Positions 29,480-33,861 of a stretch of DNA of 64,000 nucleotides are shown here, one piece after another. Source of the stretch: Candidatus Bathyarchaeota archaeon (GTDB lineage: Archaea; Thermoproteota; Bathyarchaeia; 40CM-2-53-6). Below the pieces are notes generated by a model. The model searched no databases. It was not told the origin of the DNA and saw only the letters and a program-made list of their open reading frames with translations. The stretch lies in NCBI GenBank assembly GCA_963833125.1, contig CAWHWX010000001.1, positions 192,001 through 256,000 of the forward strand, in the 5' to 3' direction. Position numbers and translations under genes: made by a program. Within the stretch, counting starts at the first letter, position 1. Every line of letters begins with the position of its first letter.

Positions 29480-29894
29480 TCATGTCAGACGTCGTATGAA
29501 TCTTGAGGGAGTCAATATTTCCGCCCGCTTAGACCTGCTGATTGCTAGTAAGTCCTTGTCTCCGGTGATTATGTGCGTCGCCTTAGCCTCTGCGGCGCAT
29601 GAAAGCAGTTTCAGGTCGTCAGGGTCGCAGATAGGGCTCTTACCGGCGCAAGGGGATCGTGAGCTTCGCAATTGCCAGGAGGAAGCTAAATGCCGTTGAT
29701 ACTTCTTCTTCGGTGAGTCGAAACTTCGGCCTTGACAAAACGTCCAGAAACTCTGCAAGAATCTCGGGTGAAATGAAGACATCGATATCGTCATTTGCGG
29801 CTAATCGAAGGAGCTTGGCCTCATTTCCGTTTTCGAAGAGTATGCCTGAAACCAACACATTGGTGTCCAGAACAACTTTCGGTCGAATGGTCAA
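29480..29894 (-). CDS. PIN family toxin, frameshifted
   Basis: VVLDTNVLVSG; CDPDDLKLLSCA...IITGDKDLL. Confidence 0.88.
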
Positions 29895-30169: not shown

Positions 30170-30390
30170 GAATCCACCTCAACAAAATAAGAAACATCTT
30201 ACTTTTAATCTCTCCCCACGATTTACGATGTGGGTAAATCCAAACGTCCACCTTTACTATGGCAGGCATGCGGACAAATTGAACTCGGATGGTCCTCAAC
30301 ACCGGTTCCGCAACACTTTAGCAAACGCTTGAAATGTAGACACGAGTCAAATATATGGTTGAGACCAACCTAAACTGAAGGTACTGCGCT

Positions 30391-30636
30391 TTGCAGAAGG
30401 CTAAGGTGATCCATCCTTACACACCAGACAAGATTGTCAGCGCGCATCCGCATCTCAAACTGAAGCAAGTACACGACGCCCTATCGTACTACTACGAAAA
30501 TAGGAATGAGCTCGATGGAAAGATAAGGAAAGACAAGCAATTCGTCCAAGAACTTTCAAAGAAGTTAGGAGCAGAGATTAACAGTTCTACAGTTTCTCGA
30601 AAACGCTTCATGGATCATCTCGGTAGATCCATCTAA
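30391..30636 (+). pseudogene. DUF433-like antitoxin fragment
   Basis: YTPDKIVSAHPHLKLKQVHDALSYYYEN resembles the C-terminal half of DUF433; N-terminal half is missing. Confidence 0.6.
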
Positions 30637-30792
30637 CCCGTTCGGTTGAACCGTACGGAGGACAAGCGCCGTCGGTCTCTGAATGAAATCTTAACAGAAT
30701 TAGTTCCGCGCCTCGTCGCATTGGGTTGAAGGAAGATGCGTATGGTTGCGTTCGCGTTGGAGGGTGGGGTGCGGTGGTTGCGTAGATGGGTG

Positions 30793-32122
30793 TTAGAAAG
30801 ATCGGGTGATTGGTTTGAAGTTAGGTCGGGTTTGCTGGTGGGATGCGTAGATGGCTAACGCGAGGCTCCATAGTTGGTCGTCATGTGTGCCGGTTGGGTG
30901 GCTGAACTTGAGCGTTCCGGCTTTGGTGGGTTCGCATTGTTGTGCGGTCATTTGGGTTAGGAGTTGTTGATTGTCTCTTGGGAGTGTGAGTTTGCCTTGT
31001 TCTAATGCGAGTTTGAGTTTGCCCATGATGTCTTCTTTCGCTTGTGCGGTTAGGGTGATTCCTTCTATTCCTCGCATGAATTGTTTGGTCTCTTCGTAGG
31101 GGCCTTCACCCACTCCGGTCTTGTCGAGGCATCCTCCGGCAAAGGCGTAGGCCTGGTTCAATCTCCTCACTGTGCCTATTACCGAGGTGTATGGGGTTTC
31201 TAGCGGCAGTTCGTTAAGGTAGATGAGGTGAAGTTGGTCGTGGTCTTTCTCTAGGATGGCTATTGCAGAGTGGTCTGCGTGTTTTCCGAAGTCTATTCCG
31301 ATGATGTATTCGCCTCGGTGCTTTTCCGTTGGTTTAGGTTCTTGGTTTAGCTCGTAGTCATCTGTGCAGGTGAGGATTAGGTTGCTTGGTAGGTAGCTGA
31401 ATTCGTCGTCGATGAAAGCGGCGTTGTATTCACGATTATAATCGTATTCTCCTATTGTGTTTCTTTCCCGTTCAAGTTTCTTGGGGGTGATTAGTGGGTT
31501 GAGGGATGAGGGCCAGGTGTAGGTTTTGAAGCCTAGCTCGGGTTTGCTGAGGGCTTCGTGGAATGGGTGGTCACGCACCCAGGGCGTCGAGATCATAATC
31601 AACCTTGAGTTGTCGCGGGTTATCATGGTGGGTCTGATTACTGAGTCGATGACTAGTCTCGGAATGAAGTTCGCTTCATCCAGGATGACCATGTCTGCTG
31701 TGTATCCTCGGAGAGTTGCTCCGTCTCTTCCGCATGGTAGGGCAACAATCTCGGAGAGGTTTGCGAAGCGGATCTTGGTTCTAGACTGGTAGGTCATTAG
31801 TTTCTTTGCTGGGATGGAGTTTTCGGCTAGGTGGAGGATTTTGTCGAAGAGTATCATGCTCTGTCTTAGGCCGGCGCTGACGATCAAAGTGCGAGTTGCT
31901 TCGTTGGCGAGGGTGTAGTGGAGGGCTTTGATGGCGGTTAGGGTTGTTTTTCCAACTTGTCGGCCGCAGCAGGCGGCGATGAGTGGGGATTGGTCGCGTA
32001 GGAATTCTTCTTGGTATGGGAAGGGTTTGAAGTTTAGGAAGTTTCGTGCGAAGGTTATCGGGTCTCTGATGGAGTCGGCTACGTATTGGGCATATTTCTT
32101 GAAGAGTTCATTTCGGTCTATT
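30793..32122 (-). CDS. terL: Terminase large subunit (ATPase + RNase H-like nuclease)
   Basis: Frame open upstream of 31887 to about 32134: PFPYQEEF, GRQVGKTT (Walker A), LRGYTADMVILDEA (Walker B), ISTP, IGIDFG, DDQLWSLALA. No ATG/GTG/TTG precedes Walker A. Confidence 0.9.
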
Positions 32123-32518
32123 TTTGAGCGCCTCTAAGATAAGCCTCGCCAACTCCTCTTCTCCCTCCTTGCCTGCTTGGGTTGTGATTCGGTCTTTGCG
32201 TGTGACGGCGAGTCCTTTGAGGGCGGTTTCGATGATTTTTCTAAGCTTGGCTTGTGAGTCTGTGACGCGGCTGTAGGTTTCGTCGTTCGCTTTTTCAGAG
32301 TCGAGGAGTTTTTCCACGTTTCTCATGTATATTGTGGCTCTGGCGATGGCGTCGATTTCTAGGTCGTCTACTTCTGGGTCGTAGCTTCCCAGTTTCTTCA
32401 ACTCCCTGATTAGGGCGGCCTTGACGGTTTCGTACTCTTTCGCGTCCTTCTCGGTGAGGAGGGGCACTTTGTGGACTGGGGGTTTGCCGTTTCGTTGGGC
32501 AGGGGTGGTGCTCTTCAT
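32108..32518 (-). CDS. Probable terminase small subunit (P27-family-like)
   Basis: Helical protein directly upstream of terL: ELKKLGSYDPEVDDLEIDAIA...LKGLAVTRKDR. Confidence 0.6.
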   Translation of the reverse strand: MKSTTPAQRNGKPPVHKVPLLTEKDAKEYETVKAALIRELKKLGSYDPEVDDLEIDAIARATIYMRNVEKLLDSEKANDETYSRVTDSQAKLRKIIETALKGLAVTRKDRITTQAGKEGEEELARLILEALKNRPK

Positions 32519-32931
32519 TCCGACGCCCCAGGCGTCTTCAGCCACGCTCTGTTCCGTATGTATTGGAGGAGTAGGGTGTGGAGCAGTGTTTGCTGCGTCA
32601 CGCCGTCCAAGCGTGCTCTCGTCAGAATTTTCTGTTTAAACTCTCTAGAGATGTGGATCGTAACGCTCTTGGTGTGCTTCTGCACGCCGACACCCTGGTT
32701 ATCTTCGAGGCCTGTGTGGATTGCCTGAAAGATGAGAAGGGCCATGTTCGGGAACCCGCTCTCCTCAACCACCCTCCTCAGCTGATCATGTTCGTCGGCG
32801 GATAATCGAATCCTCAACTTCGCCTTACCCCTCCCCCTCGCCGTGGCCTCGTCCCTCGTTTCTTCAGCCGATTCCCCCACACACCCAGCCCGCAGGCCTC
32901 GTAAAGGAGAGTTGAGGTTTGCCGCTACCAT
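32515..32931 (-). CDS. Tandem ribbon-helix-helix DNA-binding protein
   Basis: KLRIRLSADEHDQLRRVV...LIFQAI and SVTIHISREFKQKI...GVTQQTLLHTLL; overlaps the terS start. Confidence 0.6.
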   Translation of the reverse strand: MVAANLNSPLRGLRAGCVGESAEETRDEATARGRGKAKLRIRLSADEHDQLRRVVEESGFPNMALLIFQAIHTGLEDNQGVGVQKHTKSVTIHISREFKQKILTRARLDGVTQQTLLHTLLLQYIRNRAWLKTPGASE

Positions 32932-32989
32932 CGTGGGTAGGGAGGTAGCTGAAACACTCGATTCTAGCCCAACTCAAACCCGAACCAAT

Positions 32990-33172
32990 TACCCACCCCT
33001 CCTAGCTCCGCACACCCTCAGCCGCGACCATTCCCTCCCACACACCACCAGCGAATGCCTCACACAAACCCCAAAACCAACCCCCCCACCCCAAAAAATG
33101 CACCACCCCCCACCACCCCACCCAAACACACACACGTGAATATCCACCCAACCACCAAACACAACTCCACAC
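32990..33172. repeat. Low-complexity C/A-rich tract (G-tracts on minus strand)
   Basis: Runs such as ccccaaaaccaacccccccaccccaaaaaatgcaccacccccccaccacccca. Confidence 0.85.
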
Positions 33173-33306
33173 AGGTACTCGAAAATGACCCTGAAACGCG
33201 TACGCGGTACCATTGTACCGACAATGAAACCCCCGGCCATTCGATTGAGGTGCCGGATAAGGCTTAACTTAATCTAAGCTAGCAAATCCGTTCGAGTCAA
33301 ACCCCA

Positions 33307-33861
33307 TTGATGGATAAGAAGCGGATGCAGGAACTAACTGGTTCATTGCTTGAGGCGATCGGTGAGAACCCCAAACGCGAGGGTCTCAGAGACACACCCA
33401 GGCGGGTTGCGGACATGTTCGCTGAACTCACCGAAGGTTACGCTATGGACCCAAAGGAGATTCTGTCCAGAGAATGGAACGAAGTTAGCGGCATGGTGGT
33501 AGCAAAAGAGATCGGCTTCTTCAGTTTGTGTGAACATCACATTCTCCCCTTCTATGGGAAGGTGCATATCGGCTACATTCCATCGAAGGCGGTTGTGGGT
33601 CTTTCGAAGCTCGTCAGGATAGTAGATTGTTACAGCAAGCGACTCCAACTCCAAGAGCGAATGACTAAGCAGATTGCAGACGCTTTAAACGAAAACCTGC
33701 ACCCGCTTGGGGTTGTTGTAGTGGTTCAGGCTCGTCATTTGTGTATGGAGATGAGGGGTGTGAAGAGCGGCGCAGACATCCTAACCTCAGAAATCCGCGG
33801 CCAGTTTGAGAAGTTCGAGACACGGAATGAGTTCTTCAACATGCTCCGCAAAGAGGTCTAA
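33307..33861 (+). CDS. folE: GTP cyclohydrolase I (type IA)
   Basis: TPRRVA, SLCEHHILPFYG, GLSKLVR, LQERMT, HLCMEMRG. Confidence 0.96.
   Translation: MMDKKRMQELTGSLLEAIGENPKREGLRDTPRRVADMFAELTEGYAMDPKEILSREWNEVSGMVVAKEIGFFSLCEHHILPFYGKVHIGYIPSKAVVGLSKLVRIVDCYSKRLQLQERMTKQIADALNENLHPLGVVVVVQARHLCMEMRGVKSGADILTSEIRGQFEKFETRNEFFNMLRKEV

What the first reader, a model, noticed from the sequence alone, without database searches (positions are those of the whole stretch)
30793..32931. Orphan DNA-packaging module: tandem-RHH + TerS + intact TerL with no portal, capsid or integrase
Seen: three overlapping minus-strand genes. TerL keeps Walker A/B, the ISTP coupling motif and the nuclease acidic residues, and has no frameshift over about 440 codons, unlike many neighbours. 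No virion genes follow it. Known: viral terL is normally next to the portal gene, whereas gene-transfer-agent loci can be split across the chromosome. Inference: a domesticated terminase unit (dispersed GTA, satellite-type packaging hijacker or host DNA translocase/nuclease) under its own RHH regulator.
Basis: partly seen in the sequence, partly recalled or inferred. Interest (0 to 1): 0.8.

Follow-up and report, generated by a model that had tools for sequence, protein, structure and literature searches.

The report
Free-standing terminase cassette in Bathyarchaeia
A three-gene viral DNA-packaging enzyme set sits alone in an archaeal chromosome and belongs to a conserved family of such stand-alone sets, so it is probably kept for a job of its own, although this copy has lost its usual start codon.

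Summary
The three minus-strand genes are real. They are a tandem ribbon-helix-helix (RHH) protein (32931..32515), a 136-aa helical TerS-like protein (32518..32108) and a TerL frame open for 446 codons (32133..30793) with all catalytic motifs.

One correction: TerL has no ATG/GTG/TTG before codon 83, which lies after Walker A. The start codon of the nearest relative (GTG) reads GTA here.

The genome (87.8% complete) holds no detectable portal or capsid gene.

The trio belongs to a monophyletic family in one Bathyarchaeia genus:
- It occurs in 10 of 22 relatives, often in several copies.
- The family sits in at least 9 unrelated chromosomal contexts, and homology stops sharply at the operon ends where this was tested.
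- It is never next to virion genes.
- It is under purifying selection (TerL dN/dS 0.11-0.19).

Related complete proviruses (TerS-TerL-portal-capsid) exist in the same genus, and a second TerL lineage from them has also produced bare cassettes.

RHH and TerS are fused in relatives and in a true provirus. The RHH protein is therefore more likely the DNA-binding half of the small terminase than a regulator.

Best reading: a selected, free-standing terminase module (packaging hijacker or antiviral interference), not simple debris and not a gene-transfer agent (GTA). The mechanism is inferred.

The parts
32932..33110 (-). G/T-rich non-coding leader upstream of the RHH gene. It is conserved with the G014 copy, with indels, and is part of the cassette. 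It may be a promoter or a recognition (pac-like) region.
   Evidence: Alignments; composition G 0.40. BLAST homology to G014 runs from 32959 to 30791. The weaker alignment extends to about 33110.
32515..32931 (-). Tandem ribbon-helix-helix protein, 138 aa. It is probably the DNA-binding subunit of the small terminase.
   Evidence: The AF2 model gives E36-43 H45-58 H63-76 E88-95 H96-109 H113-126. Foldseek hits 9f0x_E (E 5.6e-4), DndE, Arc and AvtR. The weak Pfam and PHROG RHH hits are below cut-off. It is fused to the TerS-like part in L015, L005 and provirus g230.
32108..32518 (-). TerS-like helical protein, 136 aa. Its ATG at 32518 overlaps the RHH stop as ATGA.
   Evidence: Database homologues are 133-148 aa and start at this Met. 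AF2 gives pLDDT 82 and three helices. HK97 small terminase 6z6e_C matches at Z 8.0, rmsd 2.5 A over 79 residues, 20% identity, which is within helical noise. hhalign against HK97 gp1 gives E 0.093. The gene is conserved upstream of TerL in all family-A loci.
30793..32133 (-). TerL open frame, 446 codons plus stop. It holds an ATPase domain and an RNase H-like nuclease domain.
32080..32082 (-). GTA codon at the position of the GTG start of the nearest relative. This is where the canonical start is lost.
   Evidence: Alignment A4. The ORF lists show no ATG/GTG/TTG before 31887.
31942..31965 (-). Walker A (codons 57-64). It lies upstream of the first canonical start codon, TTG at 31887.
   Evidence: Invariant columns; coordinates worked out.

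Best explanation
The locus is a complete terminase operon of viral origin that now exists as a free-standing cassette of about 2.2-2.35 kb. It consists of a non-coding leader, a tandem-RHH DNA-binding subunit, a helical TerS core and TerL (packaging ATPase plus nuclease).

SHOWN:
- It belongs to a monophyletic TerL clade ('family A') of one Bathyarchaeia genus.
- All examined members of that clade are bare trios in unrelated chromosomal surroundings. Homology stops sharply at the operon ends in the pairs compared.
- Members are often multi-copy, are patchy among species and are under purifying selection.
- The genomes that carry them lack portal and capsid genes, or carry them only in a separate provirus of another TerL lineage.

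INFERRED:
- The RHH and helical proteins together form the small terminase. It recognises a site in or near the conserved leader.
- TerL cuts there and, when a related head-tailed virus supplies procapsids, docks on their portal through its conserved C-terminal tail (FKPxxRSF, shared with the provirus TerL).
- It then pumps in DNA that carries its own site.
- The outcome is either spread of the cassette and neighbouring host DNA (a minimal capsid hijacker), sabotage of the virus's own packaging (interference or defence), or both.

THIS COPY: the TerL start codon is lost (GTG to GTA). Translation here needs a non-canonical start, or this copy has recently been silenced.
For: Operon identity.

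RHH and TerS-like parts fused:
- in G020 (227 aa) and in the G000 C16 copy (214 aa);
- in provirus protein g230 of G013, directly upstream of TerL-portal-capsid.

Stand-alone state:
- 0 hits in G000 for PF04860, PF05065 and PF05133.
- Of 19 G013 provirus proteins, only TerL and g230 have a homologue at a terminase locus of G000. Two other rows (g349p, g504) match unrelated places.
- Lineage-specific HMMs for portal (7 sequences), capsid (8), g548 (5), g144 (4) and g126 (8) give 0 hits. The TerL HMM used as control finds all 3 loci.
- G014 (100% complete, 3 contigs) and G016 (96%, 3 contigs) each hold 3 TerL loci. Neither has a portal or capsid hit in five searches.

Family:
- 467 database homologues; the 120 listed are 57-94% identical and lie on contigs up to 1.58 Mb.
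- Family-A TerL occurs in 10 of 22 genus relatives.
- A clade of 10 genus rows has support 100/97 and all are orphans.
- No close relative was found among IMG/VR viral contigs. The best four loci are 22-30% identical.

Sharp edges:
- Window 30791-32959 matches G014 at 81% and nothing outside matches.
- A metagenome contig diverges exactly at 30791.
- A second lineage (B') shows the same pattern. A 2.07-kb unit is about 90% identical in G000, G014 and G004 with unrelated flanks, and G019 has an empty site there.

Selection: dN/dS is 0.11-0.25 for TerL (0.11-0.19 in all but one measurable pair), 0.20-0.64 for TerS (mostly 0.2-0.4) and 0.22-0.53 for RHH. Codons 18-82 of the window copy give 0.17.

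C-terminal tail shared with the provirus TerL.

Context: toxin-antitoxin genes flank the trio here. PIN, Schlafen/AlbA_2 and wHTH genes flank it in G014.
Against: - No experiment or expression data exist. No RNA run was found.
- TerL in this window has no canonical start. 17 of the 120 listed database homologues are annotated only from codon 83 or 93, including the closest one (94% identity). N-terminal damage is therefore frequent in the family.
- One orthologous copy (G021) carries an in-frame TGA. G004, G007 and G011 hold fragments.
- Purifying selection could have acted while the genes were in viruses that have not been sampled.
- No pac site, terminal repeat, target duplication, integrase or replication gene was found. 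Neither mobility nor packaging specificity is explained.
- The trio has no PADLOC match.
- The TerS assignment is weak: Z 8.0 lies within the range of unrelated helical matches.
- G000 is only 87.8% complete, so absence of head genes is not proven.
- Contexts of the hundreds of metagenomic homologues could not be inspected.
Confidence: 0.55

Rival explanations
1. Ordinary provirus debris. Related head-tailed viruses integrated repeatedly, and deletion left only the terminase end each time. The conservation reflects selection during the viral phase.
For: - Complete proviruses with (RHH-)TerS-TerL-portal-capsid exist in the genus and class: G013, G021, G039, G142, G044, G095.
- The B' orphans nest with a provirus TerL (100/100).
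- Decay is visible: start codon lost here, TGA in G021, fragments in G004, G007 and G011, a decayed copy on G000 C5, and 17 of 120 homologues N-terminally truncated.
- The neighbouring PIN gene is frameshifted.
Against: - No family-A member among 10 loci lies next to any head gene, and no family-A virus is in IMG/VR.
- Random deletion should not leave the same unit with the same edges in unrelated contexts, yet this is seen twice independently.
- Most copies keep 430-450 intact codons at dS up to about 1.5 with dN/dS 0.11-0.19.
- A general survey reports that provirus domestication depletes head and packaging modules rather than keeping them (PMC13626063, passages read).
Confidence: 0.25
2. 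Self-mobile or homing-type element. The RHH/TerS-guided TerL nuclease cuts empty target sites, and the cassette is copied in by repair. This would explain the sharp edges without an integrase.
For: - Cassette-like edges in unrelated contexts, in two lineages.
- Multi-copy and patchy distribution.
- An empty site in G019 for the C16 insertion.
- The window trio sits at a synteny break relative to G019.
Against: - No terminal repeats or target duplications were found.
- The G000 C16 insertion is 5.35 kb and the cassette is only one end of it.
- No precedent for a terminase acting this way is known to me (recalled).
Confidence: 0.07
3. A host-domesticated DNA translocase/nuclease that serves a cellular process such as repair, segregation or DNA uptake, under RHH control.
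For: Purifying selection on all three genes. Chromosomal location next to housekeeping genes: GTP cyclohydrolase I, QueD-like, QueC, ribonucleotide reductase.
Against: - Present in only 10 of 22 congeners, in changing positions, with 2-3 divergent copies in some genomes and pseudogenes in others.
- The DNA-recognition genes evolve fast: RHH is 27% identical where TerL is 75%.
- The C-terminal tail is still like that of a virus TerL.
Confidence: 0.07
4. A dispersed gene-transfer agent whose head and tail genes lie elsewhere in the chromosome.
For: Only the general precedent of split GTA loci (recalled; PMC5026251 seen as a search listing only).
Against: No portal, capsid or other head gene was found in G000 by three Pfam families, 19 provirus proteins and five lineage HMMs. 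None was found in near-closed G014 and G016.
Confidence: 0.03

Closest known systems
Terminase holoenzyme of head-tailed viruses. Nearest solved relatives are Thermus phage P74-26/G20c TerL and T4 gp17. Nearest natural relatives are Bathyarchaeia and Nitrososphaeria proviruses.
   Same: - Same two-domain TerL with all catalytic motifs.
- A small subunit gene lies directly upstream and is translationally coupled.
- The C-terminal tail resembles that of the provirus TerL.
   Different: - No portal, capsid, protease or tail genes beside it or in the genome.
- The small subunit is split into a tandem-RHH protein and a helical protein.
- The closest cultured-virus TerL is only 27-32% identical.
Phage satellites that redirect packaging: SaPI/PICI with their own TerS, cf-PICI, PICMI.
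   Same: - A chromosomal element carrying packaging-specificity genes but depending on another virus for capsids. This is the proposed working analogy.
- A minimal gene content, as in PICMIs (PMC10803314, abstract seen in a listing).
   Different: - No integrase, replication or helper-sensing genes.
- It brings a complete terminase including TerL and nothing else.
- The host is archaeal. In archaea, only satellites of spindle-shaped viruses had been described (bioRxiv 10.1101/2025.02.15.638363, passages read).
TraY of the F-plasmid relaxosome and AvtR (single-chain tandem RHH proteins).
   Same: Best fold matches of the RHH protein. That 9f0x chain E is TraY, and that TraY positions the TraI nuclease at oriT as a site-specific accessory factor, is recalled and comes from no call.
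   Different: No sequence-family membership. The partner here is a terminase, not a relaxase.
Defective or domesticated prophage remnants.
   Same: Virus-derived genes in a chromosome without att sites or an integrase.
   Different: Here the packaging module is what remains. It recurs as an exact unit under selection. The general pattern reported is loss of packaging genes (PMC13626063).

Membership tests
Terminase large subunit (Pfam Terminase_6N + Terminase_6C) | N-terminal ASCE ATPase with Walker A, Walker B and coupling motif | tested here: met
   Pfam 2.8e-10, above cut-off. Invariant G57-T64, D152-E153 and S182-T183-P184. PDB 4zni 2.2e-14 and T4 gp17 6.8e-12.
Terminase large subunit (Pfam Terminase_6N + Terminase_6C) | C-terminal RNase H-like nuclease with conserved acidic residues | tested here: met
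   Terminase_6C 3.3e-6, above cut-off. D281, D337, D418 and D419 are invariant. PDB 5tge 7.6e-17.
Terminase large subunit (Pfam Terminase_6N + Terminase_6C) | Translatable full-length gene with a start codon before Walker A | tested here: not met
   No ATG/GTG/TTG before codon 83. GTA stands where G014 has GTG.
Viral packaging module (terL next to the portal gene in a virus genome) | Portal and capsid genes adjacent or in the same element | tested here: not met
Small terminase subunit (HK97 gp1-like) | Sequence-family match | tested here: inconclusive
   No Pfam, PHROG or NCBIfam hit. hhalign against HK97 gp1 gives E 0.093 over 67 columns.
Small terminase subunit (HK97 gp1-like) | Fold likeness | tested here: inconclusive
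   6z6e_C matches at Z 8.0, rmsd 2.5 A, 79 residues, 20% identity, but unrelated helical proteins score 8-10. Foldseek E 0.74.
Small terminase subunit (HK97 gp1-like) | Gene directly upstream of terL, coupled to it and conserved with it | tested here: met
   BLAST-detectable homologues sit upstream of TerL in complete proviruses L124 and L129.
Small terminase subunit (HK97 gp1-like) | Ring oligomer that binds pac DNA | not testable with these tools
   Needs biochemistry or a structure.
Ribbon-helix-helix DNA-binding proteins (tandem, single chain) | Two beta-alpha-alpha units in one chain | tested here: met
   AF2 secondary structure (pLDDT 70-86 in the units, pTM 0.29). Foldseek 9f0x_E E 5.6e-4, DndE, Arc, AvtR.
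Gene-transfer agent | Head and tail structural genes elsewhere in the same genome | tested here: not met
   Genome completeness is 87.8%.
Phage satellite (PICI, PICMI, P4-like) | Integrase, att sites, replication or helper-sensing genes in the element | tested here: not met
   Flanking ORFs are toxin-antitoxin and housekeeping genes. No flanking repeats were found.
Phage satellite (PICI, PICMI, P4-like) | Packaged into a helper virus's capsids | not testable with these tools
   Needs virus-particle DNA or culture.
Known anti-virus defence systems (PADLOC-DB) | Match to a defence protein model | tested here: not met
   TerL and RHH have 0 families. TerS has only PD-T4-10_A at E 0.022.

The most novel reading that the evidence does not exclude
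Bathyarchaeia carry a family of capsid-less, integrase-less terminase cassettes (RHH + TerS core + TerL) that selection maintains as autonomous units. They would act on the capsids of infecting head-tailed viruses in one of two ways.

- As the most reduced kind of virus satellite yet seen. This would be the first for tailed archaeal viruses, and the first to bring a whole terminase and nothing else.
- As a 'decoy terminase' defence that mis-packages or cuts viral DNA.

The same conversion from provirus module to bare cassette has happened at least twice, in families A and B'.
Probability: 0.3. Interest if true: 0.85.

Novelty: new variant of a known kind. Interest (0 to 1): 0.62.

Why it matters
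If the cassettes are active, they would be a new way for cellular genomes or minimal mobile elements to exploit or block virus assembly in archaea. That could make them a route of gene transfer in Bathyarchaeia, one of the most abundant sediment and peat lineages, for which no genetic system exists.

It would also show that a tandem RHH protein can serve as the DNA-recognition part of a small terminase.

It offers a natural experiment on what a terminase does without its capsid.

If they are only debris, they remain a warning. A terminase hit is a poor marker of a provirus in these genomes: two near-closed genomes carry three TerL loci each and no head genes.

Tried and rejected
- Complex prediction, TerS-like against RHH residues 34-132: no verdict, score 0.00.
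- The look-up of sequencing runs: no RNA holder listed, only two DNA holders with small shares.
- Read laying: contigs only, depth about 1.3 over the start codon, so nothing on GTA versus GTG.
- pac-site idea: a 16-nt motif occurs upstream of the RHH gene and again inside terL in the window and in G014. No counterpart was found in five other family-A loci. Dropped.
- Terminal inverted repeats or target duplications at cassette ends: none consistent. The G019 empty-site alignment shows no clear att or duplication.
- RNA reading of the conserved ~190-nt leader of the G014b/G018/G021/G013 clade: 1 of 64 predicted pairs has a compensatory change. No Rfam match at E up to 1, and none in the window at gathering score.
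- No tRNA in the window.
- A +1 frameshift from terS into terL: reading by eye, I saw no slippery site conserved between the window and G014. No tool was used.
- Empty site for the window's own trio: unresolved. The G019 flanks lie on two contigs and map to G000 contig C9.
- hhalign of TerS against provirus g230: only 12 columns aligned.
- The search of earlier findings: nothing returned.
- Multi-copy repeats at the window cassette edges: none in G000.
- Papers: four of the five full-text searches listed no paper whose title or abstract describes a free-standing terminase family in archaea; the listings were not read in full. The supplements of PMC11697101 (provirus figure and table) were not seen. 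They may show which TerL lineage that Bathy-6 provirus carries.
Full report
WHAT IS THERE

The window is G000:C1:192001-256000 of a 3.07-Mb, 39-contig genome that is 87.8% complete. Sources label the closest homologues Candidatus Bathyarchaeia.

On the minus strand lie three tightly packed ORFs:
- A 138-aa protein at 32931..32515.
- A helical protein at 32518..32108. It is 136 aa from the ATG that overlaps the upstream stop as ATGA, and database homologues start at this Met.
- A frame open from 32133 to the stop at 30793, 446 codons.

The last is a large terminase subunit.
- Pfam: Terminase_6N 2.8e-10 and Terminase_6C 3.3e-6, both above cut-off.
- PHROGs: phrog_2 at 6.5e-39.
- PDB profile hits: Thermus-phage TerL nuclease and ATPase domains, and T4 gp17.
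- Walker A, Walker B, the S-T-P coupling motif and four acidic nuclease residues are invariant in an 18-sequence alignment.

The first protein is a single-chain tandem ribbon-helix-helix. The AF2 model gives beta-alpha-alpha twice. Its best fold matches are F-plasmid relaxosome chain 9f0x_E (E 5.6e-4), DndE, single-chain Arc and AvtR.

The middle protein has no family hit. It folds as three helices with pLDDT 82. Its lowest-rmsd match is the HK97 small terminase (Z 8.0, 2.5 A over 79 residues, 20% identity). Unrelated helical proteins score as high, so this is only suggestive.

THE CORRECTION

TerL is open but not obviously translatable.
- No ATG, GTG or TTG occurs before TTG at 31887 (codon 83), which lies after Walker A at codons 57-64.
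- In the closest genomic relative (G014, 83% aa identity) the gene starts at GTG. The window reads GTA there (32082-32080).
- In the sister clade the start is an ATG. It aligns to ATA in both the window and G014.
- The ATG that overlaps the terS stop is in another frame and stops after 10 codons.
- Codons 18-82 still show dN/dS 0.17 against G014. The loss is therefore recent, or a non-canonical start is used.
- This is not unique. 17 of the 120 listed database homologues are annotated only from codon 83 or 93. They include the closest one at 94% identity.

IS IT ALONE?

Yes, as far as these tools can see.
- The flanks are a DUF433-like ORF, MazE/AbrB-PIN and other small toxin-antitoxin-type genes, and UDP-glucose dehydrogenase on one side. 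On the other side are GTP cyclohydrolase I, a PTPS/QueD-like gene, QueC and ribonucleotide reductase.
- G000 has no match to Pfam portal or capsid families.
- I then found a real provirus in a congener. G013 contig C4 carries RHH-TerS fusion g230, TerL, a 552-aa portal, a 548-aa protein and a 329-aa capsid protein.
- Of 19 proteins of that provirus, only TerL and g230 have homologues at terminase loci of G000.
- HMMs built from portal (7), capsid (8) and three other head-module families of Bathyarchaeia and Nitrososphaeria proviruses gave 0 hits on all six-frame ORFs of G000. The TerL HMM recovered all three TerL loci.

THE FAMILY

G000 has two more TerL loci.
- C16 carries TerL in two frames behind an RHH-TerS fusion, next to an ABC-transporter binding protein.
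- C5 carries a decayed copy at a contig end.

Among 41 genomes, G000 included, 18 have a TerL match. TerL of the window's type (47% identity or more, or fragments) occurs in 10 of 22 congeners, twice in G014.

In every full-length locus the same order recurs: tandem RHH, TerS-like, TerL. In G020 the first two are fused.

An ATPase-domain tree puts the 10 genus rows in one clade (100/97), all orphans. Provirus TerLs lie elsewhere, and the G000 C16-type orphans nest with the G013 provirus (100/100).

The portal and capsid proteins of that provirus are found in only 4 of 41 genomes each. In G013 and G021 they lie on other contigs than the family-A loci. G014 and G016 are near-closed, carry three TerL loci each and have no portal or capsid match in five searches.

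No close relative is in IMG/VR. The best cultured-virus TerL is 27-32% identical.

Across the class, 95 of 301 genomes have a TerL at E 1e-40 or better. Those outside the genus are 29-46% identical, apart from a 52% fragment in G033. Of 16 contexts fetched:
- Three are complete head modules (L124, L126, L129).
- Several are bare modules (L118, L119, L121, L127, L131).
- At least three (L117, L120, L130; possibly L123, L122/L132 and L128) have an ABC-type ATPase after TerL.

CASSETTE BEHAVIOUR

- Nucleotide homology between the window and G014 (81%) runs from 2 nt beyond the TerL stop (30791) to 28 nt upstream of the RHH start (32959). A weaker G/T-rich stretch aligns further up. The flanks are unrelated.
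- G014's second copy is 91% identical in TerL to G018's but sits in a different context. G018 and G021 are truly orthologous, with flanking dS of 0.03-0.25.
- A metagenome contig diverges exactly at 30791.
- The C16-type unit behaves the same way. A 2.07-kb unit is about 90% identical in G000, G014 and G004 with unrelated flanks. In G019 the flanks are adjacent, so G000 has a 5.35-kb insertion there with the cassette at one end.
- Relative to G019, the window trio sits at a synteny break.
- I found no terminal repeats, target duplications or integrase.

SELECTION

Pairwise Nei-Gojobori dN/dS among seven family-A copies:
- TerL: 0.11-0.25 (0.11-0.19 in all but one measurable pair), at dS from 0.27 up to saturation.
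- TerS-like: 0.20-0.64, mostly 0.2-0.4.
- RHH: 0.22-0.53.

Divergence is graded. Between clades, TerL is about 75% identical, TerS about 43% and RHH about 27%. This fits fast-changing DNA-recognition parts on a conserved motor.

In the G014b/G018/G021/G013 clade, a ~190-nt non-coding leader is better conserved than the RHH gene next to it.

INTERPRETATION

Shown:
- A complete terminase operon.
- Its free-standing, recurrent, selected state.
- The lack of head genes.

Inferred: RHH plus the helical protein form the small terminase. The evidence is the fusions in G020, in G000 C16 and in the provirus, together with their position.

Inferred: the module still works with capsids. The extreme C-terminus of family-A TerL (FKPxxRSF) is shared with the provirus TerL despite only 31-40% overall identity. 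That C-terminal tails of terminases dock on portals is recalled knowledge.

I therefore favour a hijacker or interference role on infecting head-tailed viruses. Plain debris is the main rival.

A general survey found that provirus domestication loses packaging genes rather than keeping them (PMC13626063, passages). Satellites of tailed archaeal viruses have not been described (bioRxiv 10.1101/2025.02.15.638363, passages). A Bathy-6 study reports a 46.8-kb siphovirus-like provirus with terminase and integrase (PMC11697101, passage). Its supplements were not available.

VERDICT

The GTA reading is not supported. The 'domesticated or hijacker' reading is plausible and broadened to a family. The mechanism is unproven.

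Noticed in passing
L005:8706-8820 (G000:C16:449705-449819). Full copies include G000:C12:129277-129397 and G000:C1:384255-384370, all outside the window.: A MITE of about 190 nt with 14-nt terminal inverted repeats (GGTAACGTCAAGTT...) and 8-bp target duplications. There are at least 27 matches in G000 and many in G014, G018, G013 and G004. Its central 115 nt is homologous to the 5' end of the RHH-TerS gene of the C16 cassette, and read in frame it encodes an RHH-like strand.
   Followed up: partly
L005:9257-10730; L059:14454-15903; L092:9993-11724; L091:9652-11042: In the second TerL lineage the ATPase and nuclease domains lie in two overlapping frames. The split is conserved in 3 complete proviruses (G013, G021, G039) and 3 orphan cassettes (G000, G014, G004). 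It is therefore either a genuinely split TerL or a programmed frameshift, not damage.
   Followed up: partly
L070:8995-9205, L072:8995-9205, L074:6122-6332, L071:9020-9230: A non-coding leader of about 190 nt upstream of the RHH gene. It is more conserved than the RHH coding sequence (37% aa identity between G013 and G018). There is no covariation support and no Rfam match, so its function is unknown.
   Followed up: partly
L117:10640-12085, L120:7746-9266, L130:10650-12071: In other Bathyarchaeia families the TerL module is followed directly by a ~480-aa ABC/SMC-type ATPase. It matches PADLOC mad3 (down to 5e-17) and mad8. The domain is generic (39 ORFs of G000 match its HMM), but the pairing recurs.
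   Followed up: partly
window 29480-29894: The PIN toxin gene next to the MazE/AbrB-type antitoxin is split over two frames here. It is an intact 153-aa ORF in G019.
   Followed up: partly
window 30391-30636: An 81-aa ORF with a weak DUF433 match lies convergent to TerL. A 79%-identical stretch lies just downstream of the family-A TerL of G020, in the other relative orientation.
   Followed up: no
window 30240-33309 compared with G019 contigs C14 and C102 and G000 contig C9: The trio sits at a rearrangement junction. The genes that flank these points in G019 (S8-type peptidase and rhamnose genes; ParB-like to 3-methyladenine glycosylase) lie about 32 kb apart on G000 contig C9. The G019 gene names were read from the translations and not tested by a search.
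   Followed up: partly
L081-L085, L087 (one Alphaproteobacteria MAG): Six loci in one bacterial genome carry a TerL-like gene about 28% identical to the query, with the same match range. This could be a transposable Mu-like prophage family or another multi-copy element.
   Followed up: no
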